Below are positions 6,278 through 25,853 of a stretch of DNA of 64,000 nt, in pieces (the stretch's first letter is position 1; the number at the start of each line of letters is the position of its first letter). Source of the stretch: Patescibacteria group bacterium (GTDB lineage: Bacteria; Patescibacteriota; Microgenomatia; UBA8517). The stretch lies in contig JAHJHG010000009.1 in the NCBI GenBank assembly GCA_018823885.1, positions 783-64,782 on the forward strand, in the 5' to 3' direction. Position numbers and translations under genes: made by a program. The notes beneath the pieces were generated by a model. The model was not told the origin of the DNA. It worked only from the letters and a program-made list of their open reading frames with translations, and did no database searches.

Positions 6278-6988
6278 ATGAAAAAAATAACCATTACACT
6301 CGCCCTATTTTTGTTGATATTAATCTTTGTTCCAAAAAACATTTTTGCACAAGGAACATTTTCCTGCTACCAGCCAACGGCCAGCGTTCCCTGTGTTCCA
6401 GCAAATGTATATTGTGAAGAAGGGTATATCCCCGACACTAGTTATTGTAGTGCAAGGACAAACTCTAATTGCAACAATGTCCCTGCGACAACATGCATAG
6501 AAATACAGGGGCCAGAAACACAAACTGGCTGCTCTTCTGTCAGCACGGGCAGAACATATTGCACAACACAAGCTGCCCCTGGATATGGAGATATAGAAAT
6601 ATACTGTTCTACCAGTGATGAGTGTGAGAGCTATAAAGCAGAGCATCCATTAGAATCATCGGATAGTGAGTTTCCAACCTGTTTTACCGACGGCAAAAAA
6701 GGAATAAATACAGCTATCGGTTGTATCCCGATAGAAGACTCGAATTTGCTGATTGGTTTTATCTTAAAATGGGCCATTGGTGTTGGTGGAGGTATTGCTT
6801 TCCTATTAATCGTCCTTGCAGGTTTTCAAATAATGACCTCATCCGGCAACCCGGATAGATTAAAAGCAGGCCAAGAATTAATGACCTCGGCTATTGCAGG
6901 ATTAATACTTTTGATATTCTCTGTTTTTATATTAAAAATTATTGGAGTTGATATACTAGAATTACCAGGCTTTGGAGGAACACCATGA
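6278..6988 (+). CDS. T4SS pilin-like protein (VirB2/TrbC-type two-TM core) with about 120 aa Cys-rich N-terminal extracellular extension. First member of the paralog array.
   Basis: Signal peptide. At least 11 Cys in residues 30-130. C-terminal TM-SSGNPDRLKAGQEL-TM core shared with downstream paralogs. Stop overlaps the next start (ATGA). Confidence 0.6.
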   Translation: MKKITITLALFLLILIFVPKNIFAQGTFSCYQPTASVPCVPANVYCEEGYIPDTSYCSARTNSNCNNVPATTCIEIQGPETQTGCSSVSTGRTYCTTQAAPGYGDIEIYCSTSDECESYKAEHPLESSDSEFPTCFTDGKKGINTAIGCIPIEDSNLLIGFILKWAIGVGGGIAFLLIVLAGFQIMTSSGNPDRLKAGQELMTSAIAGLILLIFSVFILKIIGVDILELPGFGGTP

Positions 6989-7311
6989 AACTTGCACAAG
7001 ATTTAGAAGAAATTCAAAGTAAGGCATTACCTCAGTTTGAATTCTCGGGAGAACAAGGAGATATTGGAAATGTTGTCTCCAGTCTTATTAATTATCTTTT
7101 TCCATTGGCTGGAATCTTACTTCTTCTCTATCTTATCTATGGCGGATTTAGTCTAATGACCTCGGGTGGAGATCCAAAAGCGGTTCAAGGCGCAAAAAGT
7201 AAAATTACTAGTGCTCTAATTGGTTTCATAATCATTTTTGCGGCCTATTGGATAGTACAAATAGTTGCGTCAATTTTAGGAATCGAGGCAATAACAAATA
7301 TCTTCGGATAG
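6985..7311 (+). CDS. T4SS pilin-like small two-TM protein (paralog 2)
   Basis: Core LMTSGGDPKAVQGAKSKITSALIGFIIIFAAYWIVQ...GI. Confidence 0.65.
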   Translation: MKLAQDLEEIQSKALPQFEFSGEQGDIGNVVSSLINYLFPLAGILLLLYLIYGGFSLMTSGGDPKAVQGAKSKITSALIGFIIIFAAYWIVQIVASILGIEAITNIFG

Positions 7312-7349
7312 ATTTGCACCCTACCTCTTTTGCCTGCTAAACTTAAACC

Positions 7350-7670
7350 GTGAATAAATTAGCTGTTGAGATAGGAGAAAAGTTTTTTGGGGAAGGTTCC
7401 AATACACCATTAGCCGAAATCAGTGGGATTGGAACTCTTGTCTCCATTATCGTCAACGCCGCATTTGTTTTGGCAGGTATTATTTTGCTCTTCTTCTTTA
7501 TCTTCGGGGGAATTTCTATGATTGCAGGCGCCGGAAAAGATAATCCAGATCAAGCGGCAAAGGGAAAGCAGGCAATAACTTCTGCTCTTCTTGGTTTTAT
7601 TGTTGTTTTTGCCTCCTATTGGATAGTACAATTAATCGAACTTGTCACAGGAATCATTATTTTAGGATGA
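7350..7670 (+). CDS. T4SS pilin-like small two-TM protein (paralog 3, GTG start)
   Basis: Starts GTGAATAAATTAGC (MNKLA). Core AGKDNPDQAAKGKQAITSALLGFIVVFASYWIVQ. Confidence 0.6.
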   Translation: MNKLAVEIGEKFFGEGSNTPLAEISGIGTLVSIIVNAAFVLAGIILLFFFIFGGISMIAGAGKDNPDQAAKGKQAITSALLGFIVVFASYWIVQLIELVTGIIILG

Positions 7671-8023
7671 ATAAATTAGCAGAAAACAGTCCTTTTGGAT
7701 CCATAAATTTACCAGAAACTATAGAGAATAAATATCCCGGTGGAGTAGAAGGTGGGGCAATAGGAATCTTTCTAAACTGGACTATCAAGGCCCTTATTAT
7801 TGGTGCCGGGGTATATGCTCTCTTTAATCTTGTTCTTGCCGGATATGCTTTCATGTCTGCTGGAGATGATCCCAAAAAAATGGCTGGTGCCTGGGCAAAG
7901 ATATGGCAAACTCTTTTGGGGCTTGCTTTTGCCGCTGGCGCCTTCGTCTTAGCCGCTATATTTGGACAACTGATATTTGGAGATCCAACTTTTATACTTA
8001 ACCCAACAATACCGACACCATGA
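7667..8023 (+). CDS. T4SS pilin-like small two-TM protein (paralog 4)
   Basis: Starts ATGAATAAATTAGC (MNKLA), overlapping the previous stop (ATGA). Core SAGDDPKKMAGAWAKIWQTLLGLAF. Confidence 0.6.
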   Translation: MNKLAENSPFGSINLPETIENKYPGGVEGGAIGIFLNWTIKALIIGAGVYALFNLVLAGYAFMSAGDDPKKMAGAWAKIWQTLLGLAFAAGAFVLAAIFGQLIFGDPTFILNPTIPTP

Positions 8024-8385
8024 ATAAATTAGCTGATATAAACCTGGCGCCCGAGGGAGGATTTAAAGGATTTGGTGCCCTGGGGTTAGAAGAAGGACAG
8101 AGCGCTCCAGCAGTATTTACAAAATTCATCTCCAGCGTTATTGGACTAATGACAATTATCGCCATTATCTGGTTTGTTCTTCTGATGATAATGGGGGCCA
8201 TTGGCATTATTAGTTCGGGGGGAGACAAAGCGGCGTTGGAATCTGCTAAAAAACGAATTACAACCGGAATTCTTGGCTTCGTCGTCGTTATTGCCGCTAT
8301 TTTTATTGTCCAATTAATAGGAAAACTGATAGGAATACCGAATATATTAGATCTGCCTGTCTTGTTAGAAGGAATTCAACAATAG
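8020..8385 (+). CDS. T4SS pilin-like small two-TM protein (paralog 5)
   Basis: Starts ATGAATAAATTAGC (MNKLA), ATGA overlap. Core SSGGDKAALESAKKRITTGILGFVVVIAAIFIVQ. Confidence 0.65.
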   Translation: MNKLADINLAPEGGFKGFGALGLEEGQSAPAVFTKFISSVIGLMTIIAIIWFVLLMIMGAIGIISSGGDKAALESAKKRITTGILGFVVVIAAIFIVQLIGKLIGIPNILDLPVLLEGIQQ

Positions 8386-8726
8386 TGAATTATCTTGCTC
8401 AAGATTCAATAGAAAATCCCGTCTTAGGCCCCTCTTTGCAAACAAAAACCGGTGTTGGGTTTTTCCAAGATCTTTTACCCAGAATGGTCGGTCTGGCTTT
8501 CCTTGTAGGTGTGCTTATCTTTTTCTTTGTCATGATAATGGGGGCGATTCAATGGATCACTTCTGGAGGAGATAAAGCAGGGATCGAGTTAGCCAGAGGA
8601 AAAATAACAAATGCTATTGTCGGAGTGGTTATTCTTCTCTCCCTTTTTGCTCTACTTAAAGTCCTTGAGGACTTTTTTGGAATAAACATACTTGCCCTTG
8701 ACATAGGGCCGCTTATGATTCAATAA
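8385..8726 (+). CDS. T4SS pilin-like small two-TM protein (paralog 6, GTG start overlapping previous stop)
   Basis: Core TSGGDKAGIELARGKITNAIVGVVILLSLF...FGI. Confidence 0.6.
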   Translation: MNYLAQDSIENPVLGPSLQTKTGVGFFQDLLPRMVGLAFLVGVLIFFFVMIMGAIQWITSGGDKAGIELARGKITNAIVGVVILLSLFALLKVLEDFFGINILALDIGPLMIQ

Positions 8727-8736
8727 TATACGCAGA

Positions 8737-9087
8737 ATGCTTAACTTTTTGTATTCAACCGCCGTTCTCGCAGCCGACGACATAAATCTTAGCCCCACAG
8801 GGGAATTTTCGGCTCTTGGTGACTTAACAATTGGCGGAATTGTTTCAGCTTTTATCCGATTAATTCTAGTTGTTGCCGCCTTGGTATTTTTCTTCATTCT
8901 TGTTATCGGAGGAATCAGGTGGATTGCCTCAGGTGGAGATAAGGCTCAAACCGAAACAGCCAGAAATCAAATTACGGCCGCACTTGTTGGATTGGTTATC
9001 GTTTTTGCCGCTTGGGCCATTGTTCAACTAATAAATACCTTCTTCGGTATTGACATTTTCAGTCTTACCCTCCCAACGGCACAATAA
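8737..9087 (+). CDS. T4SS pilin-like small two-TM protein (paralog 7)
   Basis: Core ASGGDKAQTETARNQITAALVGLVIVFAAWAIVQ...FGI. Confidence 0.65.
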   Translation: MLNFLYSTAVLAADDINLSPTGEFSALGDLTIGGIVSAFIRLILVVAALVFFFILVIGGIRWIASGGDKAQTETARNQITAALVGLVIVFAAWAIVQLINTFFGIDIFSLTLPTAQ

Positions 9088-9156
9088 AACAGGCTTGCTC
9101 CAATTACTTCATTAAGTTAAACTTTAAGTCGAAAAGTATTGGTATCTTTTTGCATC

Positions 9157-9486
9157 ATGAATAAAATTATTAGTACTGTATTGGCTGCTGAAATTGAAAC
9201 AGTGGATGATGTTGCCACACTTCAAGGCTTTGAAGGAGTTTTTGAAAACATAGTAACCATCGTCCTAGGATTTGGAGGTATTATTCTTTTCATCATGCTT
9301 ATAATGGGAGGGTTTCGATTTATAACCGCTGGTGGAGACCCCAAGGCAATCGAAGGTGCAAAAAAAACCTTAACTTATGCTATCGGAGGCATTGTTCTTG
9401 TTGCTCTTTCATTTCTAATCCTCAGATTTATTTCCACCTTTACCGGAGTCGATGTCACTCAATTTAAAATATTTCAAGGAAATTAA
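9157..9486 (+). CDS. T4SS pilin-like small two-TM protein (paralog 8). Likely start at MNKIIS.
   Basis: Core TAGGDPKAIEGAKKTLTYAIGGIVLVALSFLIL...TGV. Confidence 0.6.
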   Translation: MNKIISTVLAAEIETVDDVATLQGFEGVFENIVTIVLGFGGIILFIMLIMGGFRFITAGGDPKAIEGAKKTLTYAIGGIVLVALSFLILRFISTFTGVDVTQFKIFQGN

Positions 9487-9499
9487 CTTCAAAACAAAA

Positions 9500-11869: not shown

Positions 11870-11919
11870 ATGGTGTGTTGTTGACCCTACATTCGTATTG
11901 TATGATTAAAATAATAAGT

Positions 11920-15859: not shown

Positions 15860-16606
15860 GTGTATTATGGGCTGTACAATCGCAAGCAAATGAGTTTTGA
15901 GCAAGAAATATCTTGGCTGAAAAAAACCAAAGAAGCCAAAGATGCGTTAGAAGGACAACGAAAAATCAAAGCCGAGACAGCGGAATTGAAACGCTTAAGA
16001 TGGATAGAAGAAAGAACTGCACAGTTTGCGCCCCATAAATCAACTGCGTTGCGTTTTCTCAAAAGATGGAATGAACTAGAAATCGATAAACTTATCGAGG
16101 ATCTTCACAGTTTTAGTACTAGCACTAATAATTATGGCAAACCCACTAATACTTTTGTTGTATTCCAAAATCTAAACGTCGATCGACATTCTAAGGAGAA
16201 GAAAACACAATTTTTGAACTTGAAACAGTATGAAAAAGGCTGGTGTGTCGAACAAGAAGATAATTGTTTTCCAACAATCAGTGAGGTTTTAGCCAACAGC
16301 AAACTCATCAGAAACTTGGAACCAAACAAAATAATATTTTCTCATATCTACAAAGCGTGTCATACATTTATAGAAGAACGTGATTGTCTCGATGACACCT
16401 ATTCTAGCTACGCAAGAATTGACTTTAGCATAAAAATGTCTCCTTATGAAATTATTGTCTTCCACCCAAGAATTTCTCATAAAAGGAGCTTGGTATCGTT
16501 AGAAGAACTACAAAATAGCGGAGATCTGGCCCAAAGATTGGATAGATTTTTAGCAGAACAGTACAGTAAGCAGGCCCCGGCAGAGACAGAAAATAAGATT
16601 CAATAA
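15860..16606 (+). CDS. Hypothetical cytoplasmic protein (248 aa)
   Basis: ORF with no recognisable motifs. Lies between the 774-aa gene and the VirB3-like gene. Confidence 0.4.
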   Translation: MYYGLYNRKQMSFEQEISWLKKTKEAKDALEGQRKIKAETAELKRLRWIEERTAQFAPHKSTALRFLKRWNELEIDKLIEDLHSFSTSTNNYGKPTNTFVVFQNLNVDRHSKEKKTQFLNLKQYEKGWCVEQEDNCFPTISEVLANSKLIRNLEPNKIIFSHIYKACHTFIEERDCLDDTYSSYARIDFSIKMSPYEIIVFHPRISHKRSLVSLEELQNSGDLAQRLDRFLAEQYSKQAPAETENKIQ

Positions 16607-16742: not shown

Positions 16743-17786
16743 ATGGATCAACAACACCCTATACCGCAACAAATATCTTCCTACCAGTTTAAGTTGGTAG
16801 GAAATATGACTTTAAAGCAATTTTTCCAAATAGCGGGAGGAGCTCTGTTTTCTCTTCTTTTCTATGCATCAAATCTTCACCCCGTTATCAAATGGCCTCT
16901 TGTAATATTTTTTGCTCTTTTTGGAGCCGCTCTTGCTTTTCTTCCCTTTGAAGAAAGACCTCTTGAGCAATGGGTTATTTCATTTTTCAAAGCAGTCTAT
17001 ACTCCTACTACCTATTTTTGGGGGAAAACGACCAAGCCTCCTGTGTTTTTTAAAGAAGAAGCGTCTGTGCCCCAAGAGCATGTTGTTGCCCCACATGGAG
17101 AGAAAGAATTGGAAAAATACTTGCAGAGTCTTCCAGGGCGAGGCACTTCCGTATTTTCCAAACTCGAAGAGGCTGAAAATACTTTCCTTTCAAAACTTAC
17201 TAGGCTTTTCGGAAGTGGCGGAACAAGAGCGATTGAAACCCCCTCTTCAGCCGCTATGGCTCAACATACCCCGCAAGAGAAACAGCAAGAAATGACTGTG
17301 CCGCAAAACATACCAACTGTTATTCCGCAAGGATATAAGCCCAGGGTTGTGGTTGAAGAAAAAAAACCACTACTTCAAAATCAACAGCCAGCAGAAGCAA
17401 AAACTTCCACCGTTGCCAAGACGTTCACTGCTCAAGAAGTGATATCGGGACAAGCCGCCCAGTTCTCCGTCAATGCAGCTCCTCCACTTCCCCCTGAGAA
17501 GCCTAATACACTAACTGGTCAGGTTGTCGATGCTGGTGGCAAAATCATTGAAAGTGCAATACTCGAAATCAGAGATGTTGCCGGCCGACCTGTTAGAGCC
17601 GTCAAAACAAACAAAGTGGGGCACTTCATAATTGTTACCCCATTACAAGATGGGCGATACGAAATTATAAGCGAGAAGGAAGGGCTTAATTTTGAGCCAT
17701 TAACCTTTGAAGCAACCGGGAGCATTATTCCACCAATTGCGATAAGGTCTAAAAATAAAATTCCCACACCAATAATAATTAATTAA
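16743..17786 (+). CDS. Membrane protein with VirB3/PrgI-like N-terminal two-TM hairpin, Pro/Gln-rich linker and C-terminal carboxypeptidase-regulatory-like (Ig-like) domain
   Basis: N-terminus MTLKQFFQIAGGALFSLLFY...VIFFALFGAALAFLPFEERPLEQW. C-terminus GQVVDAGGKIIESAILEIRDVAGRPVRAVKTNKVGHFIIVTPLQDGRYEI. Directly upstream of the VirB4 ORFs. Confidence 0.45.
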   Translation: MDQQHPIPQQISSYQFKLVGNMTLKQFFQIAGGALFSLLFYASNLHPVIKWPLVIFFALFGAALAFLPFEERPLEQWVISFFKAVYTPTTYFWGKTTKPPVFFKEEASVPQEHVVAPHGEKELEKYLQSLPGRGTSVFSKLEEAENTFLSKLTRLFGSGGTRAIETPSSAAMAQHTPQEKQQEMTVPQNIPTVIPQGYKPRVVVEEKKPLLQNQQPAEAKTSTVAKTFTAQEVISGQAAQFSVNAAPPLPPEKPNTLTGQVVDAGGKIIESAILEIRDVAGRPVRAVKTNKVGHFIIVTPLQDGRYEIISEKEGLNFEPLTFEATGSIIPPIAIRSKNKIPTPIIIN

Positions 17787-17787
17787 T

Positions 17788-18447
17788 ATGAAAATTCCTT
17801 TTATTAGCATACCAGATAAGCCAATATCAGCAATTTCTCAAAAACATTTGCCGATTGCCGATATTGTTGATGACCTGGTTTTGTACAAAGATGGAGGTGC
17901 GGCAATTATCTTGGAAACTACCTCCCTTAACTTTGGTCTTTTGTCCGAAAAGGAGCAACAAGCTGTTATTGCCGCCTATGCTGCTCTTCTCAACTCTCTT
18001 TCTTTTGCTATCCAAATAGTTATTCGCTCTCAAAGAAAAGATATCTCGAGCTATATGAAATATCTTGATGAGGCTTCAAACAAAATTCAAAACCCAAAGC
18101 TTATTGAAATCATGACGGGTTACAAAAACTTTGTTTCTGAAACGATAAAGAAAAAAAATGTTCTGGGAAAAAGATTTTTTATTGTCATTCCGTTTAGCGC
18201 TTTAGAGCTTGGTGTAACGAAATCTGTTCTTTCGATTGCAAAAAAAGGCCCACTTCCATACCCCAAAACCTACGCAATTAAAAAAGCCAAAGTTTCTCTC
18301 TATCCAAAAAGAGACCATCTTATCAGACAAGCCGGGAGATTAAGTATAAAACTAAAACAACTCTCCACTGCGGAATTAATAGAGCTTTTCTATGACATTT
18401 ATAACCCAGAAATGCCAGCAGTTAAAAGCAAGGAGGACACCGTATAG
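17788..18447 (+). CDS. VirB4/TrbE N-terminal-domain-like protein (219 aa). Either a separately encoded N-domain or the 5' part of a split virB4.
   Basis: LPIADIVDDLVLYKDGGAAIILE..NFGLLSEKEQQAVIAAYAALLNSL..IQIVIRSQRKD aligns with the VirB4 N-terminal block (LPY.GHLSDHIVLLEDGS...FELEE.E.RN....NTLLRN...VSIYAHLVRH). Stop lies 1 nt before the ATG of the ATPase ORF. Confidence 0.45.
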   Translation: MKIPFISIPDKPISAISQKHLPIADIVDDLVLYKDGGAAIILETTSLNFGLLSEKEQQAVIAAYAALLNSLSFAIQIVIRSQRKDISSYMKYLDEASNKIQNPKLIEIMTGYKNFVSETIKKKNVLGKRFFIVIPFSALELGVTKSVLSIAKKGPLPYPKTYAIKKAKVSLYPKRDHLIRQAGRLSIKLKQLSTAELIELFYDIYNPEMPAVKSKEDTV

Positions 18448-18448
18448 T

Positions 18449-20410
18449 ATGGACGTACCAGGTTTTTTGAAAAAGAAACAGACAATCCAAGAGGACGCAG
18501 CACAAACAAGTGCCAGTGTGTCTTTACCTCAATCTCAAAATGTTGACAACACACCACCCCCCAATGGTGAGGTTGCTCAAAACAATACTCCAACAAAAAA
18601 ACCACCCATTCCTTCTCCCACCATTGCCTTTAGTCAAAAACAAATGCCCCTTATAGACATTCTTGCTCCTCAATCAATGGAAGTTGATTTTGGCTTTATT
18701 AAAATAAACAATGTCTATTTTAGAACTCTCTTCATCGCCGGATATCCAAGATTTGTTTCCCCTGGGTGGTTAGAACCAATCGTCAATTTTGATAATTCTT
18801 TAGATATTTCATTTAACATTTATCCTGTTGCCGGGAAAACAGTTCTCGACGATTTGAGACGAAAAATTGCCGAGATGGAGGCTGAAATAGCCACTGACCT
18901 CGAAAGGGGAAAAATCGTTGATCCTTCAACCCAAGCAAAACTAGAAGATGCAAGAACGTTGCAAGAACAATTGGTAAAAGGATCTGAGCGCTATTTTGAA
19001 TTTTCTCTCTATATAACCATCCCCGCTCCCTCTCTGGAAGAATTAAACCAAATTACCCGCCAAATCGAATCAACTCTTGGTTCTCTTTTGATCGTTGGCA
19101 AAAGAGCCACTCTTGATATGGAAAAAGGATTTCTTTCGTCAGCCCCTTTTGGAAGAGATGTCCTCTCAATTACAAGAAATATGGATACCACTTCTTTGGC
19201 AACCACTTTTCCGTTAACTTCTGCTGAATTATCCTCCGACAAAGGCGTACTTTATGGCATTAATTCACAAAATGATTCTTTCATTATCTTCGACAGATTT
19301 TCGCTGGAAAACAGCAACATGACTATCTTTGCTACCTCGGGTGCCGGAAAAAGTTATTTTGTTAAATTAGAAGCCTTAAGATCTTTAATGCTCGGAACGG
19401 AGGTTATTGTCATCGACCCTGAAAGCGAATACGAAGCATTGGCTGGTGCAGTTGGTGGACAATTTGTCTCTTTTTCATTTAACTCTCCGTCTAAAATTAA
19501 TCCTTTTGACCTAACTCAAATCTACGAAGAGGGAGAAAATCAGCTAGGATTAAAAATCCTAACTCTTCATTCTCTTTTTAAGGTCATCATGGGGCAATTG
19601 AATGCTACCCAAGAAGCCCTTCTTGATCGAGCCTTGGTGGCAACATACAGAGCAAAAGGAATAACTCAAGACCCAGCAACCCAAAAAAGAGAACCTCCTT
19701 TAATGGAAGATCTTTACAAAATTTTAATGGGTATGGAGACCGCGGAAGCAAAAGACTTGGCAGCAAGAATTGAAAAGTTTGTAAAAGGAAGTTTTGTCGG
19801 CATGTTTGATCAGCAAACAAGCGTCGAGATAAAAAACCCTTTTGTTGTTTTCTCTGTTAAAGATCTGCAAGAAGCACTCAGACCAATTGCCATGTTTATC
19901 ATCTTGGATTTCATTTGGACAAGAGTAAGAAGAGATATTAAAAGAAGGTTGCTGATCGTCGATGAGGCTTGGCACATGATGCGATATGAAGACTCTGCTC
20001 AATTCCTCTGGAGCGTTGTTAAAAGAGCAAGGAAATACTTTCTAGGATTGACCACTATAACGCAAGATGTAGAAGATTTCTTGAGTCAAGACATCGGTAA
20101 AGCTATCGTTACAAACTCGGCTCTTAGGCTTCTCCTTAAGCAGTCTCCTGCGGCAATAGACAAGATCGGCGAAGTCTTTTATTTATCTCAGGGAGAAAAA
20201 CAACTCTTAATGGGGGCGAACATTGGGGAAGGAATCTTTTTTGCTGGACCCCACCATGCACCAATAAGTGTCGTCGCATCCAAAGAAGAACATAAATTGA
20301 TCGATTCAAGGCCTCAGGAAAAGACATTCAATGAAAATGTTGATTCAAGACCTTTTGCAACAACAGAACAAGTTACTCAAAGGAATCAATATGACAGAAA
20401 CCCTCAATAA
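18449..20410 (+). CDS. virB4: T4SS ATPase VirB4/TrbE/CagE family
   Basis: Walker A FATSGAGKSYF. Walker B RLLIVDEAWHMM. RBS AAGGAGGA about 12 nt upstream of ATG 18449. N-terminal Pro/Thr/Gln-rich low-complexity stretch, then a GYPRFVSPGWLEP block. Confidence 0.8.
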   Translation: MDVPGFLKKKQTIQEDAAQTSASVSLPQSQNVDNTPPPNGEVAQNNTPTKKPPIPSPTIAFSQKQMPLIDILAPQSMEVDFGFIKINNVYFRTLFIAGYPRFVSPGWLEPIVNFDNSLDISFNIYPVAGKTVLDDLRRKIAEMEAEIATDLERGKIVDPSTQAKLEDARTLQEQLVKGSERYFEFSLYITIPAPSLEELNQITRQIESTLGSLLIVGKRATLDMEKGFLSSAPFGRDVLSITRNMDTTSLATTFPLTSAELSSDKGVLYGINSQNDSFIIFDRFSLENSNMTIFATSGAGKSYFVKLEALRSLMLGTEVIVIDPESEYEALAGAVGGQFVSFSFNSPSKINPFDLTQIYEEGENQLGLKILTLHSLFKVIMGQLNATQEALLDRALVATYRAKGITQDPATQKREPPLMEDLYKILMGMETAEAKDLAARIEKFVKGSFVGMFDQQTSVEIKNPFVVFSVKDLQEALRPIAMFIILDFIWTRVRRDIKRRLLIVDEAWHMMRYEDSAQFLWSVVKRARKYFLGLTTITQDVEDFLSQDIGKAIVTNSALRLLLKQSPAAIDKIGEVFYLSQGEKQLLMGANIGEGIFFAGPHHAPISVVASKEEHKLIDSRPQEKTFNENVDSRPFATTEQVTQRNQYDRNPQ

Positions 20411-22391
20411 AATACTGGTCCCGGTAAGCAAAAGAACCGTTAACTTCCTTCATCGGGGTCTTAAGGTTTTTTACCCAGAGATTGTTTTTGGAAGGAAGGA
20501 TGGTAAAAAAATAACTGTTCCTAATTTTTGGCCCGAGGGCGGATATATAAAATCAGATTTTGCCGAACTTCTAAAGAAAACGACGAAAAAAAATGATATT
20601 GATCAAGCTATAAAGATTGTTCTTGAATGGAAAAACCTGTGGGATGAAGGTACACAGCCTGACGATACTATTCCGGAAATTCTTGACGATCTGGTTTCCT
20701 CCATGGATGAAAATGCGACCGGGGAGAAGAAGTTAAGTTCCTACGACAAGCAAGCCCTGGCCAAAAAAACACTACTGGAAAGCCAAAAACAGATTGAAAA
20801 ATCCATATCTATACCAGAACCTATACCTGCTACCTCATCTTCCACAGTCGTATCAAGAACCGCTGGTCGATTTCTATCGGCACCCTATAGAGCCGCCACC
20901 TATCTTTCAGGTCCTACAACCTATTCGAGTTCTGCAAAAGAGGAAGGTCCAGGTACTGCAACGGCGAGATATATGATGAGCCACGGAATATCAAGCGCTT
21001 CGATTCGATCGCTTGGGAATAAAGCTCAACAACTAGGAATTACACCAAGTCAGTTAAATAACCTCGCGAACTTAATTAAGACAGAACAAGAAGCACATCC
21101 TTTTAGTCATAAATGGATTTCTAGAATCTACAGCAGACAAGCTGGTCTGTCTGAATCTCAAGTCGCCTCCTTCCTTATACCATCTGCTGATGGTTCAACC
21201 GCTGTGTTGCCAAGAAAATCGTTTGTGGGAAATGTTATTGGACGGATTGGACAACAACTCTTTGGAAAAGTTTCTTCAAAAGCATTTAAAGCAGTGGGCA
21301 AAAAAGTTGCCGCAAAGGTGACAACAACCGCTGCCGCACAAGCTATCGGAGCGGTAGTGGCTCCAGGACTAGCAAATATTGCCCTTCTTGTTGTAGGAAA
21401 AATAAAAGATTTTATTTCCAGTCTTAAGACAAAGGAGGGCAAAGAAAGGATCCTTGCATTAATTTCTGGGGCGATGTTTCTTGGCGGCATTACCCTTGGC
21501 GGACTTTTAGGAGCCGCCCTTGTTGTTGGTGGTTTTATTTCAGGAGTCGGCTTATTAGCAGCAAAAGCAGGGGGCTTTGGTCTTTTAGGAGCAAGTATTG
21601 GAAGTTTTGGACAAGCGTTTATGGCTGGCCTAACTGGTGTTGTTTTTCCTTCTATTGCAGCCCCACTTATAATCTCTTTTATTTCTATCCCTGTCATGAT
21701 TGCTATCATTCTATTTATTATTAATTCCGGTGCATACATTGTTCCTCCTAGTCCTTTTTCTGAGTCTTCGTTTGCCGGCTTCCCAATAGAATGCACTACA
21801 GAAAAATTACCGGTTTCGCTTCCAAAACCGACAACTTCACTAATTACCGTAAGGGCTTGGGAAATAACGTCGGATCTTTACCAAGGCTTTTGGTGCTACT
21901 GGAATCGTTCTCCAGGAGATTTCCCCGAAGATGTCACTCTTTATCCACCAAGCTACCCTGATTTATTTAATGAAGTATATTTTGAGAAAGACCCTTTTCC
22001 ATCACCGACAGAGGCCTCAAAATGTGGAAATTGTTTGTTTTGGTGTACTTATCTCGTACAAAAAGCCTATCGAGAAACTGGAAACACAGATATTATGATC
22101 ACTCTTTGGTCACCAACAATGTACGAAGATTTTTTAAGGAGGGGAAAAATTATTGTGTCCTCTGAAGCTACTCCTGAAAATGTTGTTTCGGGTAGTGTTA
22201 TTTTCTTTCAGGTTCTTTCAGGGCAAAATAGAATTAATCACGTAGGTATCGTTCATTCAACTACTAAGGACAGTATTCAATATATCCAATCGAACGCGCC
22301 AACTAAAGATGGTTCTCTTACTTTTAGTTTGTCAGGAATAGGAATTCAAGATCTACCTGGTATCAAAATTGTTGGAATCGGATTACCTTAA
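20391..22391 (+). CDS. T4SS-associated cell-wall hydrolase. N-terminal soluble region, Gly/Ala-rich multi-TM region and C-terminal CHAP (Cys-His amidase/peptidase) domain. Likely a PrgK/TraG/VirB1 functional analog.
   Basis: Start ATG 20391 with AGGA RBS, overlapping the virB4 stop. CHAP catalytic Cys in KCGNCLFWCTYLVQKAY and His in INHVGIVHS. Long GxxxG-rich hydrophobic stretch in residues about 320-470. Confidence 0.6.
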   Translation: MTETLNKILVPVSKRTVNFLHRGLKVFYPEIVFGRKDGKKITVPNFWPEGGYIKSDFAELLKKTTKKNDIDQAIKIVLEWKNLWDEGTQPDDTIPEILDDLVSSMDENATGEKKLSSYDKQALAKKTLLESQKQIEKSISIPEPIPATSSSTVVSRTAGRFLSAPYRAATYLSGPTTYSSSAKEEGPGTATARYMMSHGISSASIRSLGNKAQQLGITPSQLNNLANLIKTEQEAHPFSHKWISRIYSRQAGLSESQVASFLIPSADGSTAVLPRKSFVGNVIGRIGQQLFGKVSSKAFKAVGKKVAAKVTTTAAAQAIGAVVAPGLANIALLVVGKIKDFISSLKTKEGKERILALISGAMFLGGITLGGLLGAALVVGGFISGVGLLAAKAGGFGLLGASIGSFGQAFMAGLTGVVFPSIAAPLIISFISIPVMIAIILFIINSGAYIVPPSPFSESSFAGFPIECTTEKLPVSLPKPTTSLITVRAWEITSDLYQGFWCYWNRSPGDFPEDVTLYPPSYPDLFNEVYFEKDPFPSPTEASKCGNCLFWCTYLVQKAYRETGNTDIMITLWSPTMYEDFLRRGKIIVSSEATPENVVSGSVIFFQVLSGQNRINHVGIVHSTTKDSIQYIQSNAPTKDGSLTFSLSGIGIQDLPGIKIVGIGLP

Positions 22392-23035
22392 TGTTTAAGA
22401 AAAAAAATGCCATCATTATTGTTTTTGTTATCTTGATTATTGTTTTTGTTTTCCTTCAAATAAAAACTCAGTCTCCCAAAGTGATAGCGACTCAACCTGA
22501 AGATGGCTCTATCCATGTCTCTCAAGAAACTGATCTTTCTATTCTTTTTGATAAAGCATTAAATGATAAAAACATTAAAAAAATTAGTCTTGAGATCACA
22601 CCAAAAGAGGACTTTGGGCTTGTTTTTTCAGAAAAAGCAATGATTGTTTCTTTTATAAACAATCTTCAACCCGACACTCTTTACTCTATTGTTGTTAAGT
22701 ATAATAGCAAACCTATTTACAATTTTTCTTTTGAAACAACACCATTTACCGACGAAATTATTTCTAAAGAAGGGGCACTTCAATCTATTGACGATTCAAT
22801 CTTTGGCGAGGCTTTTGAAAATTTCATCGAAAATTATCCTTGGTATGTTCATCTTCCGATTGAAAATAGTCAATATCGTATTGTTTACGATTTTGAACGA
22901 AAATCTTTTAGAATAAGAGTTCTCGTTCCCGACTTAGATCCAGAACAAGAAGAAGTGTTTATTGAAAATGCTATTGAAAATCTAAAAACAATTGGTTTAA
23001 TTGAACCTATTAATTACTACGTTATAAAAGAGTAA
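22391..23035 (+). CDS. Bitopic membrane protein with extracytoplasmic Ig-like domain. Possible VirB8-position T4SS component.
   Basis: N-terminal TM IIIVFVILIIVFVFL, then IATQPEDGSIHVSQETDLSILFDKAL Ig-like block. Start overlaps the stop of the hydrolase gene. Confidence 0.4.
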   Translation: MFKKKNAIIIVFVILIIVFVFLQIKTQSPKVIATQPEDGSIHVSQETDLSILFDKALNDKNIKKISLEITPKEDFGLVFSEKAMIVSFINNLQPDTLYSIVVKYNSKPIYNFSFETTPFTDEIISKEGALQSIDDSIFGEAFENFIENYPWYVHLPIENSQYRIVYDFERKSFRIRVLVPDLDPEQEEVFIENAIENLKTIGLIEPINYYVIKE

Positions 23036-24151
23036 CTAGCTTTGAATCTTCACAGGCATTATTAAATGAAGGTAATCGGGATCTTTAGGGTCTCTGAAAA
23101 TTCCTGGTGCGTTTGTAGCTGAAAGTTCAATTTGTATTTCATCCTCCTTCACTACCCCTAAGAAGTCCTCTAAGAATCTATAGTTAAACGCTATCTTAAA
23201 ACCTTTTTTGTCTATTGATCCTACCACTTTAGCATCAACCTTCGTTTCCTGTGAACCTGAAGATTGACTTTCTGCGGAAAGTTCAACTGTGTCTTTCCTA
23301 ACAGTGAAATTAATAACATTTGCGGAATCTCGGGCAAAAACGGAAGCCAACTTAACGGCTCGAAGTAATTCTTCTTTATCTAAACTTATTTTTATCTTTG
23401 AATCTTTAGGAATAATCCTCTCAAAATCAGGGAATTCCCCTTCTAATATTCTTGAGGCGAGAATCGTTCCTCCTAGTCCAAAAACAACTTGATTGTCTGA
23501 TTTTCTTAAAGAGAAACCTATTTTCTCTTCTTCAGAGGAAAGTCTTGATAGTTCACTGAGCGCCGTTTTTGGTAATATGACGCTCTGTTTCTTTTGTATT
23601 GTCTTCATTGAAATCTCCTTTTGAGACAATCTAAAACCATCTGTGGCTACTAATATCAATTTCCCTTTTTTATATATGAATAATATTCCTGTTAAAATCG
23701 GCCGTGTTTCATCCACTGAGGCTGCAAAAGAAACTTGAGATAAAGCAGTTAAGAAGCTTTCTCTTTCTAAAATAATCGACTCCTTCCCGACTGATTGAGG
23801 TATTGTGGGAAAATCAGCCGCATTCATTCCAGAAACACTAGATTCAAAATTCTGTGCAGATATTTTTACTTGTTCATTAATAGATGACAAATTAATAGAG
23901 CCAGAAGGTAGATTAGATACAATATCGGTAATCACTCGTGCCGGTACTGTTATTTCTCCTTCTTTGTCTATTTGAGCCCCAACCGATATTGAAACTGACG
24001 TTTCAAGATTTGTTGCAGATACTAAAAGTTTTGCTTTTTTACCAGAAATAAGAATATTACCTAAAACCGGAAGTTGCGCTCTTGCGCTTGTAAATCTGGA
24101 TGCGGTAACGAGAGCTTTAGAAAGATTTTCTTGTAAAACCTGTAATTTCAT
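23036..24151 (-). CDS. dnaN: DNA polymerase III beta subunit (sliding clamp)
   Basis: Full-length DnaN similarity (MKLQVLQENLSKAL...LPVLGNILI...). Located downstream of dnaA. Confidence 0.9.
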   Translation of the reverse strand: MKLQVLQENLSKALVTASRFTSARAQLPVLGNILISGKKAKLLVSATNLETSVSISVGAQIDKEGEITVPARVITDIVSNLPSGSINLSSINEQVKISAQNFESSVSGMNAADFPTIPQSVGKESIILERESFLTALSQVSFAASVDETRPILTGILFIYKKGKLILVATDGFRLSQKEISMKTIQKKQSVILPKTALSELSRLSSEEEKIGFSLRKSDNQVVFGLGGTILASRILEGEFPDFERIIPKDSKIKISLDKEELLRAVKLASVFARDSANVINFTVRKDTVELSAESQSSGSQETKVDAKVVGSIDKKGFKIAFNYRFLEDFLGVVKEDEIQIELSATNAPGIFRDPKDPDYLHLIMPVKIQS

Positions 24152-24416
24152 TTTGTTTATCTTTCTTTCGCATTATATGAACAATAAATAATAAAGGCAA
24201 GATGTTTCCAAAATGTATTTTATTAGTTTTTATTATATGCTGTTCTTTCTTTATATAAATTAGTAGTAATAGTAGTAGGGTTTGTTGATAAGTGGAAAAG
24301 TACGCCTACGTAGGCTGGTGATTGATTGTTTATATTAAACATAGTTAATTGTGGATATAAATGTGGATAAAATTACGATTATTGTTGATAAGTGGAGAAA
24401 CTTGATGGGTTTATCC
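24152..24416. promoter_or_regulatory. Candidate oriC: DnaA-box cluster plus AT-rich unwinding element in the dnaA-dnaN spacer
   Basis: Consensus DnaA box TGTGGATAA at 24362-24370. One-mismatch boxes TGTGGATAT (24350-24358) and TTATCCTCA (about 24408). Exact 15-mer TTGTTGATAAGTGGA duplicated at 24282-24296 and 24383-24397. AT-rich stretch with (TAG)n-like repeats at 24217-24278. Confidence 0.55.
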
Positions 24417-25853
24417 TCAAAGACTATTTTTTATCCCCAGGATATCCTGACGAGTTTGCACATCCCTACTGGCTAAATGAGTTATCTTTTCCACAGCATG
24501 CATGACAGTTGTGTGATCTCTTCCACCGACAAGCCTTCCAACTTCCTGTAGTGGCAAATTAAGCTGGGTTCTTAATAAATACATCAGAATTTGTCTTGGT
24601 AAGGAAACAGGCCTTGCTCGTGAAGTACCAAGGAGAGCTCTTTTACCAAGAGAAAAGTATCGAGAAACAGCTGTAATAACCTCATTGGGAGTTGCTTTTA
24701 TTTTTTTATCGTTTGATTCAATGCCTTTCCCCAAAAGAGATTGAATTAACTCTTCTGTTATCTCGGTATTTTTTAGTTTTGCTTCAGAAGAAAGTCTAAT
24801 TAGAAAACCTTCCATTTTTCTTGCAGAGTTTATGTTTCCGGCAATAAGTTGGACAAGGTCCATAGGAATTTCGATTCCCCTCTCCTTTGTTTTGATTTGA
24901 ACAATAGCGCATCTAAGTTCAAAGTCAGGCGGAGAAATATCTACAATTAAACCCGCTTCAAACCGACTTCGTAATCGTTCTTCCAACTTCGAGATTTCAT
25001 GCGGGGGCCGATCAGAAGCCAAGATTACTTGTCCTCCTTCTGCAACGAGGGCATTGAATGTGTGGAAAAATTCTTCTTGAACAGCATCTTTTCCAGCGAT
25101 AAATTGGATATCATCAATGATTAAAGTTTTTAGTTTTCTGTACTTATTTCTGAAGTCCACTGTTGTCTTTTTTCTGATTCCCTCGACTATTTCGTTCGTA
25201 AATTCTTCTCCAGTGCAAAAAAGAATTTTGTCATCGACTCGTTCTCCTATTAGGTAGTGACCGACAGCGTTCATTAAATGAGTTTTTCCAACCCCCACTC
25301 CACCCCAAAGAAAGAGAGGGTTATATGAAGTACCTGGATTTTTGGAAACGGCTTCTGCTGCGGCCCAAGCCATTTGGTTGGAAGAGGACACGGCATAGTT
25401 TTCAAAGGTAAATCCCGGTCGAATTCTTGCTTTTGATAGACTAACCCCGATTTCTTCTTGGAGCCTTTCTTCCTGTTCGAAAAGCGGCGCCGGCGCATTT
25501 GTTTTGGTGACCCCTTCTTTCTTTGGATGCTCTTTTACAATAAATATCAAATCGCACTCGGTATCAAGGATCTTTTTTAAAGAATCTTGTATCAGACCAA
25601 AATAGCGCCCTTCGATTGTCGACTTAACAAAACTGGAAGAGCATCCAATTTTGGCAATATATCTCCCCTCTTTTTTACTAAGATTTGAGAGATGAGTTTG
25701 TGAGAACCACGTTGAAAATATCGCCGGTGAGACAGACACCTTTATACTTTCCATGGAATCATTCCATATTTGATTTTTATTAATACTAGACACAGTGATT
25801 AGATTTACGGGACAGTCGGACAGGAGCAAATGCATAGTAGTGAAGTTATCCAC
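24417..25853 (-). CDS. dnaA: Chromosomal replication initiator DnaA (start may be the internal Met at 25754)
   Basis: AAA+ Walker A GGVGVGKTHL. C-terminal DnaA DNA-binding signature (HTTVMHAVEKI). Confidence 0.9.
   Translation of the reverse strand: MDNFTTMHLLLSDCPVNLITVSSINKNQIWNDSMESIKVSVSPAIFSTWFSQTHLSNLSKKEGRYIAKIGCSSSFVKSTIEGRYFGLIQDSLKKILDTECDLIFIVKEHPKKEGVTKTNAPAPLFEQEERLQEEIGVSLSKARIRPGFTFENYAVSSSNQMAWAAAEAVSKNPGTSYNPLFLWGGVGVGKTHLMNAVGHYLIGERVDDKILFCTGEEFTNEIVEGIRKKTTVDFRNKYRKLKTLIIDDIQFIAGKDAVQEEFFHTFNALVAEGGQVILASDRPPHEISKLEERLRSRFEAGLIVDISPPDFELRCAIVQIKTKERGIEIPMDLVQLIAGNINSARKMEGFLIRLSSEAKLKNTEITEELIQSLLGKGIESNDKKIKATPNEVITAVSRYFSLGKRALLGTSRARPVSLPRQILMYLLRTQLNLPLQEVGRLVGGRDHTTVMHAVEKITHLASRDVQTRQDILGIKNSL

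What the first reader, a model, noticed from the sequence alone, without database searches (positions are those of the whole stretch)
17788..20410. VirB4 encoded as two ORFs: N-domain-like ORF stops 1 nt before ATG of the ATPase ORF, which has its own strong RBS
ORF 17788-18447 aligns with the conserved N-terminal block of VirB4/TrbE (LP..D.VLL.DGS...FEL..E.E......LLR). The downstream ORF (ATG 18449, preceded by AAGGAGGA) carries a Pro/Thr/Gln-rich linker-like stretch, then the VirB4 membrane-proximal block and the Walker A/B ATPase. The two are in different frames. This could be a genuinely split VirB4 (two-subunit), a frameshift or pseudogenization, or programmed frameshifting. The six-frame track makes it look like a 56-nt overlap, but the RBS plus ATG at 18449 gives a clean 1-nt spacing.
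Basis: partly seen in the sequence, partly recalled or inferred. Interest (0 to 1): 0.6.

Follow-up and report, generated by a model that had tools for sequence, protein, structure and literature searches.

The report
Two-gene VirB4 ATPase (TrsD plus VirB4)
The motor ATPase (VirB4) of this ultrasmall bacterium's type IV secretion system really is encoded as two back-to-back genes, but the arrangement is conserved across Patescibacteria, also occurs in staphylococcal plasmids, and has been published as "TrsD + VirB4", so it is real but ordinary.

Summary
ORF1 (17788-18447, 219 aa) ends at TAG 18445-18447. One base later, ATG 18449 opens a 653-aa VirB4-type ATPase, with AAGGAGGA 12 nt upstream.

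It is not an assembly error, a pseudogene or a programmed frameshift.
- Of 82 related loci, 78 are split, 2 fused and 2 unresolved. Junctions vary (ATGA overlap, +1, +5 and others), and all three relative frames occur.
- Both ORFs are under strong purifying selection.

The two ORFs are complementary, not redundant.
- ORF1 covers the first ~180-230 positions of full-length VirB4 profiles, and ORF2 starts where ORF1 stops.
- Their concatenation, and rare natural fusions, align to VirB4 models in one stretch.
- A confident AlphaFold model of ORF1 finds R388 TrwK/VirB4 as its best PDB matches.
- ORF1 is a homologue of TrsD of pSK41/pGO1 (hhalign 95.7%). There trsD-trsE break at the same point.

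Quinonero-Coronel et al. 2025 already reported TrsD as the commonest T4SS component next to virB4 in Patescibacteria and as a remote homologue of the VirB4 N-terminus.

What is new here is small: explicit complementarity, natural re-fusions, and a hypervariable disordered spacer (6 to ~546 residues) that holds the break. Interest is low to moderate.

The parts
16743..17786 (+). VirB3-like (PrgI family) membrane protein with a C-terminal CarboxypepD_reg-like domain. First of three tightly coupled cistrons: TAA 17784-17786, 1 nt, then ATG 17788.
   Evidence: Pfam PrgI 28.8 bits (cutoff 27) and CarboxypepD_reg E 3.5e-5. Weak hit to positions 4-160 of the fused VirB3-VirB4 model VirB4_plasma. Same gene in the same position in L001, L002 and L084.
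17788..18447 (+). ORF1, a 219-aa TrsD-like protein: the detached N-terminal subdomain of VirB4.
   Evidence: NCBIfam VirB4_plasma positions 106-283, E 1.8e-8, and TrsD E 1.1e-7. hhalign of the family profile against pSK41 TrsD: 95.7%, E 8.8e-9, full length. AlphaFold2 model pLDDT 89; best PDB matches are TrwK/VirB4 chains, probability 0.96-1.0. Precomputed Pfam PF26593 TraC-like. dN/dS about 0.04.
18430..18437 (+). Shine-Dalgarno-like AAGGAGGA inside the 3' end of ORF1 (codons Lys-Glu-Asp), 12 nt before ATG 18449.
   Evidence: Sequence. The same AAGGAGG lies upstream of the downstream start in L002, L004, L005, L006, L008 and L040.
18445..18451 (+). Junction TAG-T-ATG: ORF1 stop, one base, ORF2 start. 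The frame changes by +1.
   Evidence: Junction classes in orthologues: -4 (ATGA) 26 loci, +5 6 loci, +1 5 loci, -1 4 loci, others fewer. Relative frames: +2 in 41 loci, +1 in 28, 0 in 9.
18449..20410 (+). ORF2, a 653-aa VirB4-type ATPase that lacks the first ~180-230 residues of full-length VirB4.
   Evidence: NCBIfam conju_CD1110 380 bits (cutoff 325), profile 180-734/752. VirB4_plasma 289-893/894. TIGR00929 238-726/792. Pfam P-loop_TraG, AAA_10, DUF87 and CagE_TrbE_VirB. 26% identity to pSK41 TrsE from the equivalent residue and to pCF10 PrgJ from PrgJ residue 238.
18449..18646 (+). N-terminal low-complexity Pro/Gln/Thr/Ser-rich spacer of ORF2 (residues 1-66). It is part of the hypervariable linker that contains the gene break.
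   Evidence: Composition. The spacer between the conserved blocks is 6 to 546 residues in 84 loci, median 61, and 78 here. In other lineages the low-complexity stretch is a C-terminal tail of the TrsD-like protein.
18704..19147 (+). CagE_TrbE_VirB (PF03135) block, the second half of the VirB4 N-terminal region, retained in ORF2 (residues 86-233).
   Evidence: Pfam 25.7 bits (cutoff 21), profile positions 61-196/204.
19331..19354 (+). Walker A motif, ATSGAGKS (residues 295-302).
19949..19966 (+). Walker B motif, LLIVDE (residues 501-506).
20331..22391 (+). Next cistron: a 686-aa protein with a hydrophobic central region and a weak C-terminal CHAP-like domain, a candidate VirB1-like wall hydrolase. 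Its true start may be the ATG at 20391.
   Evidence: Pfam CHAP E 0.0057, below cutoff. The syntenic gene is 857-1029 aa in L001 and L002, and 890 aa with Peptidase_M23 in L084.
6278..9486 (+). Array of eight VirB2-like T4SS pilin genes belonging to the same locus.
   Evidence: Pfam T4SS_pilin (PF18895) hits in 8 consecutive ORFs: five at or above the 26.6-bit cutoff, two just below it, one faint.
23036..25853 (-). dnaN (23036-24151) and dnaA (24417-25853), the conserved chromosomal neighbours of the T4SS locus.
   Evidence: ORF translations. dnaN and dnaA Pfam families in the syntenic loci L001, L002, L084 and L086.

Best explanation
This is a genuine, evolutionarily stable two-gene VirB4. ORF1 (TrsD-like, 219 aa) is the N-terminal subdomain of VirB4. 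ORF2 (653 aa) is the remainder: the second half of the N-terminal region plus the Walker A/B ATPase domain. The gene break lies in a disordered, hypervariable inter-subdomain spacer. The three cistrons virB3-like, trsD-like and virB4 are each separated by stop + 1 nt + ATG. They are therefore most likely co-transcribed and translationally coupled, which would give matched amounts (inferred). The two polypeptides are inferred to assemble non-covalently with the VirB3-like protein at the membrane. Together they would reconstitute the unit that is one chain in PrgJ-type VirB4 and one chain including VirB3 in Mycoplasma ICE proteins. The locus is the chromosomal, origin-proximal T4SS typical of Patescibacteria. 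Shown here: the split is real, conserved, under selection, complementary in coverage, and homologous to TrsD/TrsE. Inferred: physical reassembly of the two proteins, translational coupling, and 1:1 stoichiometry.
For: Conservation. The top 120 of 2303 ORF1 homologues are stand-alone proteins of 208-287 aa down to 67% identity. 78 of 82 genome loci are split, with diverse junctions and all three frame relations. Synteny PrgI - TrsD-like - ATPase - large protein - dnaN holds in Saccharimonadales and other lineages.

Selection. dN is 0.075-0.1 with saturated dS, so dN/dS is about 0.04 for both ORFs, and both are 87% identical in protein to L004.

Complementarity. On VirB4_plasma, ORF1 covers 106-283 and ORF2 covers 289-893. 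ORF2 begins at 180/752 (CD1110) and 238/792 (TIGR00929). The ORF1+ORF2 concatenation aligns in one stretch, 107-893, with an additive score: 293 bits against 258 + 33. The natural fused relative P0145 covers CD1110 positions 3-735 in one stretch at 388 bits, above the cutoff. It occurs on 3 contigs from at least 2 samples in the same synteny. The fused L014 covers TIGR00929 positions 7-724.

Structure. The AlphaFold2 model has pLDDT 89 and pTM 0.78. Thirteen of the top 14 Foldseek PDB hits are TrwK/VirB4 chains of the R388 T4SS.

Precedent. In pSK41, trsC-trsD-trsE have the same order and sizes. TrsE starts at the same profile positions as ORF2: 240 against 238, and 183 against 180. hhalign of ORF1 against TrsD gives 95.7%.

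Literature. TrsD is the most abundant T4SS component near virB4 in Patescibacteria. It is a remote homologue of the VirB4 N-terminus and is essential in S. epibionticum ML1 (PMC12102498).
Against: The Foldseek matches are modest (E 4e-3 to 9e-2, TM 0.39-0.49 normalised to the query), and the tool does not report which part of TrwK is aligned. The ORF1 family profile against a single PrgJ sequence was not significant. ORF1 scores far below the curated cutoffs of the TrsD and VirB4_plasma models. The 12-nt spacing between the Shine-Dalgarno sequence and the ATG is on the long side. Of the fused orthologues, L059 shows signs of local frameshift errors, and L014 rests on a single assembly.
Confidence: 0.8

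Rival explanations
1. Assembly or sequencing indel, or a recent pseudogenising frameshift, has broken a single virB4 gene.
For: The two ORFs are in different frames with an apparent 56-nt overlap. A few relatives encode one continuous ORF: L014, L059 and P0145.
Against: The identical ORF1 protein is found on 6 contigs from several sources, and homologues 89-94% identical are all 219 aa. 78 of 82 species-level loci are split, with many junction types including in-frame stops. dN/dS is about 0.04 in both parts. The downstream gene has its own conserved start, N-terminus and Shine-Dalgarno sequence. The same split exists in pSK41.
Confidence: 0.02
2. Programmed +1 ribosomal frameshifting, or stop-codon read-through, produces a full-length fused VirB4 from the two ORFs. 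The Shine-Dalgarno-like AAGGAGG just upstream of the stop would act as a stimulator, as in prfB.
For: An internal Shine-Dalgarno-like element lies 8 nt before the TAG stop. The ORF2 frame is +1 and is open from 65 nt before the end of the ORF1 stop codon. Nine orthologues have the two ORFs in the same frame, separated only by a stop.
Against: There is no slippery codon at the stop (ACC GTA TAG T). The relative frame is not conserved among orthologues (+2 in 41 loci, +1 in 28, 0 in 9), and junctions range from overlaps to gaps of tens of nucleotides. This is incompatible with a conserved recoding site. Each downstream ORF has its own start codon placed next to the stop, the signature of ordinary coupled cistrons.
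Confidence: 0.03
3. ORF1 is a diverged paralogue of the VirB4 N-terminus that works as a separate accessory or regulatory factor, for example an adaptor or assembly chaperone. It would not be an integral subunit, and ORF2 would function alone as an N-terminally truncated VirB4.
For: The literature assigns no function to TrsD (PMC12102498). In many lineages the TrsD-like protein carries very long disordered tails of up to ~500 aa. In Gracilibacteria the TrsD homologues are reported not to sit next to virB4.
Against: ORF2 lacks the region that ORF1 supplies, so coverage is complementary and not duplicated. Natural fusions place the TrsD-like domain exactly where the VirB4 N-terminus belongs, with only a 6-residue spacer in P0145. 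Gene order is strictly VirB3 - TrsD - ATPase with tight coupling.
Confidence: 0.15

Closest known systems
TrsD + TrsE of Staphylococcus aureus plasmids pSK41/pGO1 (TraD + TraE of pIP501), MPF-FATA class T4SS
   Same: The gene order is the same: VirB3-like (trsC), then a ~220-aa protein (trsD, 227 aa), then a ~670-aa VirB4 ATPase (trsE, 672 aa). ORF2 is 26% identical to TrsE over 619 residues, starting at the equivalent residue. The ORF1 family profile matches TrsD over its full length (hhalign 95.7%, E 8.8e-9). TrsE and ORF2 begin at the same positions of full-length VirB4 profiles.
   Different: That system is plasmid-borne and conjugative, with a relaxase and a VirD4 coupling protein. Here the locus is chromosomal and next to dnaN/dnaA, and no relaxase or coupling protein was found in the flanking genes that were scanned. 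ORF1 scores only 31.9 bits against the 200-bit cutoff of the TrsD model. ORF2 carries a ~60-aa low-complexity N-terminal spacer that TrsE lacks.
Patescibacterial chromosomal T4SS (Quinonero-Coronel et al. 2025, PMC12102498; Wang et al. 2023 as cited there)
   Same: VirB4, a TrsD homologue, PrgI/VirB3, an array of VirB2-like pilins and proximity to dnaA are all present here. The identical ORF1 protein is deposited from a Patescibacteria MAG.
   Different: Nothing essential differs; this locus is a typical member. The paper calls TrsD a protein of unassigned function with remote homology to the VirB4 N-terminus. It does not mention truncation of the partner VirB4 or TrsD-VirB4 fusions.
Single-chain monoderm VirB4 (PrgJ of pCF10, CD1110 family) and VirB3-VirB4 fusion proteins (Mycoplasma ICE Mbov_0397 family)
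   Same: ORF1 + ORF2 together tile these proteins. The concatenation matches Mbov_0397 model positions 107-893 in one stretch. The natural fusion P0145 matches CD1110 model positions 3-735. ORF2 residue 87 aligns with PrgJ residue 238.
   Different: Those proteins are one polypeptide. Here the unit is two polypeptides, or three counting VirB3.
TrwK/VirB4 of plasmid R388 (cryo-EM structures 7O41, 7O42, 7O43, 8RTB, 8RTD)
   Same: It is the best structural match of the ORF1 model in the PDB, with probability 0.96-1.0. The ATPase domain of the fused orthologue matches it by sequence.
   Different: It comes from a diderm MPF-T system, is a single 823-aa chain, and is only 10-15% identical to ORF1 over the aligned region.

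Membership tests
VirB4/TrbE/CagE T4SS ATPase | C-terminal P-loop ATPase domain with Walker A and B motifs, homologous to VirB4 | tested here: met
   ORF2 hits P-loop_TraG at 104 bits, plus AAA_10 and DUF87. It hits conju_CD1110 at 380 bits, above the 325-bit cutoff. Walker A is at residues 295-302 and Walker B at 501-506.
VirB4/TrbE/CagE T4SS ATPase | Complete N-terminal region in the same polypeptide (profile coverage from about position 1) | tested here: not met
   ORF2 starts at 180/752 (CD1110), 238/792 (TIGR00929) and 289/894 (VirB4_plasma). The missing part is encoded by ORF1.
VirB4/TrbE/CagE T4SS ATPase | Adjacent virB3-like gene and other T4SS genes | tested here: met
   A PrgI-family protein is encoded immediately upstream, and a T4SS_pilin array lies at 6278-9486.
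VirB4/TrbE/CagE T4SS ATPase | ATP hydrolysis, and oligomerisation at the base of the secretion channel | not testable with these tools
   This needs biochemistry or cryo-EM.
TrsD/TraD family (NCBIfam NF041427) | Score above the curated model cutoff (200 bits) | tested here: not met
   31.9 bits, E 1.1e-7, covering profile positions 21-142 of 201. ORF1 is a remote homologue, not a member of that subfamily as NCBI delimits it.
TrsD/TraD family (NCBIfam NF041427) | Full-length homology to TrsD, and a position directly upstream of an N-terminally short VirB4 | tested here: met
   hhalign gives 95.7%, E 8.8e-9, aligning TrsD 31-218 with ORF1 14-208. The gene order is identical to pSK41.
Pfam PF26593 TraC-like | Match to the family HMM | tested here: inconclusive
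   The precomputed annotation of the identical protein P0001 and of most homologues lists PF26593. The local Pfam copy returned no family for ORF1, presumably because it does not hold that model.
Patescibacterial T4SS (PMC12102498) | virB4 with trsD and prgI neighbours, VirB2-like pilins, chromosomal location near dnaA, and no relaxase in the cluster | tested here: met
   No relaxase or VirD4 family was found in the ORFs scanned between 1552 and 32712. The phylogenetic placement of this VirB4 in the Patescibacteria clade was not computed.
Programmed ribosomal frameshift genes (prfB / dnaX type) | A conserved slippery site and a conserved frame relation among orthologues | tested here: not met
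   There is no slippery motif at ACC GTA TAG T. Relative frames among orthologues are +2 in 41 loci, +1 in 28 and 0 in 9, with variable gaps and overlaps.

The most novel reading that the evidence does not exclude
TrsD-like proteins are not accessory factors of unknown function. They are an obligatory detached subunit of VirB4, so the patescibacterial and pGO1-type VirB4 is a heteromeric motor. The break sits in an intrinsically disordered, hypervariable spacer (6 to more than 500 residues) that can lie on either side of the break. Lineages occasionally re-fuse the two genes. If so, the covalent link is dispensable, and the spacer itself may be under diversifying or length selection in these epibionts. 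This gives a testable function to the most abundant 'unknown' T4SS component of Patescibacteria.
Probability: 0.55. Interest if true: 0.4.

Novelty: already known. Interest (0 to 1): 0.2.

Why it matters
The T4SS is one of the few systems shown to be essential for the epibiotic growth of a cultivated Patescibacterium, and TrsD is its most widespread component with no assigned function. Reading TrsD as the missing N-terminal piece of VirB4 gives it a concrete structural role: it is the part that contacts VirB3 and the membrane complex in solved T4SS structures. It also means that annotation pipelines and phylogenies treating the ~650-aa protein as 'the' VirB4 are looking at an incomplete motor. 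For this window specifically, the split is not an error and needs no correction. It is a typical instance of a published arrangement.

Tried and rejected
- The first AlphaFold2 run used a shallow alignment (28 sequences at 67% identity or more). It gave an unusable model (pLDDT 44), so no fold search was done on it. A 96-sequence alignment fixed this.
- Pairwise BLASTP of ORF1 against pSK41 TrsD was not significant. The shallow profile gave only 69% hhalign probability. The deeper profile was needed.
- hhalign of the ORF1 family against a single PrgJ sequence was not significant (E 0.2). Homology to the PrgJ-type N-terminus rests instead on the natural fusion P0145 covering the CD1110 model from position 3.
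- Sequence searches of the PDB with ORF1 profiles found nothing relevant. The fused orthologue matched solved VirB4 structures only in the ATPase domain.
- The local Pfam copy gave no hit for ORF1.
- The promoter and terminator scan was no better than shuffled sequence and was not used.
- The main text of Guglielmini 2014 does not name TrsD. The statement of remote homology is therefore taken from the 2025 paper that cites it.
- The alternative start at ATG 18392 was rejected, because the extension is not conserved and cannot exist in L005.
Full report
**1. The observation**

ORF1 occupies 17788-18447 (219 aa) and ends with TAG at 18445-18447. The mechanical ORF list gives the next ORF as 18392-20410, which makes an apparent 56-nt overlap. 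In the same frame there is an ATG at 18449, one base after the stop, and AAGGAGGA lies at 18430-18437, 12 nt upstream.

The upstream cistron (16743-17786) ends with TAA, one base before ORF1's ATG. Three consecutive genes are therefore joined as stop + 1 nt + ATG.

ORF2, counted from 18449, is 653 aa. Its first ~66 residues are low-complexity: residues 16-62 are 72% P/T/Q/S/N/A. Next come the conserved IDILAPQS block, Walker A ATSGAGKS (residues 295-302) and Walker B LLIVDE (residues 501-506).

**2. What the genes are**

- *ORF2.* Pfam places ORF2 in P-loop_TraG, AAA_10 and DUF87, with a CagE_TrbE_VirB block at residues 86-233.
- *Upstream ORF.* It is a PrgI (VirB3-like) protein with an extra CarboxypepD_reg-like domain.
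- *ORF2 against NCBIfam.* It is a CD1110-family VirB4 (380 bits, cutoff 325), but it covers only profile positions 180-734 of 752. It covers 238-726 of 792 in TIGR00929 and 289-893 of 894 in the Mycoplasma VirB3-VirB4 fusion model.
- *ORF1.* It hits that same fusion model at positions 106-283 (E 1.8e-8) and the TrsD/TraD model (E 1.1e-7). Coverage is therefore complementary, not redundant.
- *Direct test of complementarity.* I concatenated ORF1 and ORF2 in silico. The product aligns to the Mycoplasma model in one stretch (107-893) at 293 bits, which is the sum of the two separate scores.

**3. It is not an error, a pseudogene or a recoding site**

- *Homologue sizes.* ORF1 has 2303 database homologues. 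The best 120, down to 67% identity, are all stand-alone proteins of 208-287 aa. The identical protein occurs on six contigs from several sources.
- *Junctions in related genomes.* I fetched 80 loci from species-representative genomes (Woesebacteria/Microgenomates, 60-88% identity) and reconstructed every junction.
  - With the other fetched loci and the window itself, that makes 82 loci: 78 split, 2 unresolved by my start-finding heuristic, and 2 fused.
  - The commonest geometry is a 4-nt ATGA overlap (26 loci), then +5 (6), +1 (5) and -1 (4), with many rarer ones.
  - The downstream frame relative to ORF1 is +2 in 41 loci, +1 in 28 and 0 in 9.
  - A conserved recoding signal cannot coexist with that variety, and the window's junction (ACC GTA TAG T) has no slippery codon.
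- *The closest relative.* L004 (88% identity) keeps the +1 junction and the AAGGAGG at 12 nt although the surrounding bases differ. The ORF2 N-terminus MDVPxFLKK is conserved in L004 and L005.
- *Selection.* Both ORFs evolve under strong constraint: dN is 0.075-0.1 with saturated dS, so dN/dS is about 0.04 where computable.
- *Synteny.* The order PrgI - TrsD-like - ATPase - large protein - dnaN is kept in a Saccharimonadales contig and others.

**4. Natural fusions**

A library-wide HMMER search found 1804 representatives with E at or below 0.001. In the best 150 the domain almost always sits at or near the N-terminus. Only one of those 150, P0145 (787 aa), continues into the ATPase.

P0145 occurs on three contigs from at least two independent samples, in the same synteny next to dnaN and dnaA. 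It covers the CD1110 VirB4 model from position 3 to 735 in one stretch, above the curated cutoff.

Two of the 82 genome loci (L014 and L059) also encode a continuous protein. L014 aligns to TIGR00929 positions 7-724 in a single stretch. L059 contains a locally garbled segment that suggests sequencing frameshifts, so I give it little weight.

These fusions show where the TrsD-like domain belongs: at the very N-terminus of VirB4.

**5. Structure**

With a 96-sequence alignment, AlphaFold2 gave a confident model of ORF1 (pLDDT 89, pTM 0.78). In a Foldseek search of the PDB, 13 of the top 14 matches are TrwK/VirB4 chains from the R388 T4SS cryo-EM structures. Probabilities are 0.96-1.0, E-values 4e-3 to 9e-2, and TM-scores 0.39-0.49 normalised to the query.

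The tool does not report which residues of TrwK align. The N-terminal placement therefore rests on the profile evidence above.

**6. The spacer**

The distance between the last conserved block of the TrsD-like domain and the first conserved block of the ATPase part ranges from 6 residues (fused P0145) to 546 (L086). The median is 61 and the value here is 78.

In 118 of 150 representatives the TrsD-like protein itself carries a P/Q/T/S/A-rich tail, up to ~500 aa. An example is P0222, which is followed 15 nt later by a separate 693-aa ATPase. In this window's clade the low-complexity stretch sits instead at the N-terminus of the ATPase. The gene break thus lies anywhere within a disordered, hypervariable linker.

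**7. Comparison with what is known**

- *pSK41.* This plasmid has trsC (VirB3-like), trsD (227 aa) and trsE (672 aa) in the same order.
  - ORF2 is 26% identical to TrsE from the equivalent residue.
  - TrsE starts at the same profile positions as ORF2.
  - The ORF1 family profile matches TrsD over its full length (hhalign 95.7%, E 8.8e-9).
- *PrgJ of pCF10.* PrgJ is a single-chain VirB4. ORF2 residue 87 aligns with PrgJ residue 238.
- *Literature.* Quinonero-Coronel et al. 2025 (PMC12102498) report the following:
[quoted passage not shown] - It has no assigned function.
  - Its homologue is essential in S. epibionticum ML1.
  - The locus often lies near dnaA.
- *What the literature leaves open.* That paper does not discuss truncation of the partner VirB4 or TrsD-VirB4 fusions. 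A 2025 review of T4SS nomenclature does not mention TrsD at all.

**8. Mechanism**

*Shown:* the arrangement is two genes, conserved, complementary, and homologous to the halves of a single-chain VirB4.

*Inferred:* the three cistrons are co-transcribed and translationally coupled. The TrsD-like protein, the ATPase and the VirB3-like protein assemble non-covalently into the equivalent of a VirB3-VirB4 unit at the cytoplasmic face of the channel.

The main rival is that TrsD is a separate accessory or regulatory paralogue. It is weakened by the complementarity and by the fusions, but it is not excluded without interaction data.

**9. Verdict**

However, this locus is a typical instance of an arrangement already catalogued (Pfam PF26593, NCBIfam TrsD) and published for Patescibacteria and for pGO1/pSK41-type plasmids. 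The new increments are modest: explicit complementarity, rare natural re-fusions, junction diversity and the hypervariable spacer. Interest is 0.2.

Noticed in passing
window 6278-9486 (+): There are eight consecutive small ORFs (106-236 aa) that hit Pfam T4SS_pilin (PF18895). Five are at or above the cutoff, two just below it and one is faint. They form an array of VirB2-like pilin paralogues upstream of the VirB4 cluster, like the pilin array reported for Southlakia epibionticum.
   Followed up: partly
representatives P0121-P0270; L086 725-2842: 118 of 150 TrsD-like representatives carry long Pro/Gln/Thr/Ser/Asn-rich low-complexity C-terminal tails, up to ~500 aa. The spacer between the two conserved VirB4 parts varies from 6 to 546 residues. 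It is unexplained why a cytoplasmic motor would tolerate or need such a disordered region.
   Followed up: partly
window 16743-17786 (+): The VirB3-like PrgI protein is 347 aa, about three times the usual size. It has a Pro/Gln-rich middle and a C-terminal CarboxypepD_reg-like beta-sandwich domain. The same architecture is seen in L001 and L002.
   Followed up: no
window 9452-15809 and 15860-16606: Four sizeable ORFs lie between the pilin array and prgI: 805 aa (+), 548 aa (+), 774 aa (-) and 248 aa (+). None has a Pfam family. Large unannotated genes sit in the same place in L001 and L002, so these are candidate lineage-specific T4SS components such as VirB6 or VirB8 analogues.
   Followed up: no
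window 20331-22391 (+): The gene after virB4 encodes a 686-aa protein with a strongly hydrophobic, Gly/Ala-rich central region and a weak C-terminal CHAP-like domain (E 0.0057). Its syntenic counterparts are 857-1029 aa, or 890 aa with Peptidase_M23. It is possibly a membrane-anchored VirB1-like hydrolase. Its annotated start overlaps virB4 by 80 nt, and the ATG at 20391 would reduce the overlap to 20 nt.
   Followed up: no
window 22391-24151: The Big_5-domain ORF (+) ends at 23035, and the convergent dnaN (-) has its stop at 23036. The two convergent genes therefore abut with no intergenic base and no terminator-like structure between them.
   Followed up: no
loci L004, L008, L009, L016, L017 and others: Many TPA metagenome-assembled genomes that carry this typical patescibacterial locus are titled 'uncultured Gammaproteobacteria bacterium'. 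These are almost certainly mislabelled taxonomy in the records.
   Followed up: no
L059 4959-7706: The fused VirB4 of Woesebacteria RBG_16_42_24 contains a locally aberrant segment: AIRRRYAS where relatives have AGYPRFVS. This suggests compensating frameshift errors, so the fusion in this assembly may be an artefact.
   Followed up: partly
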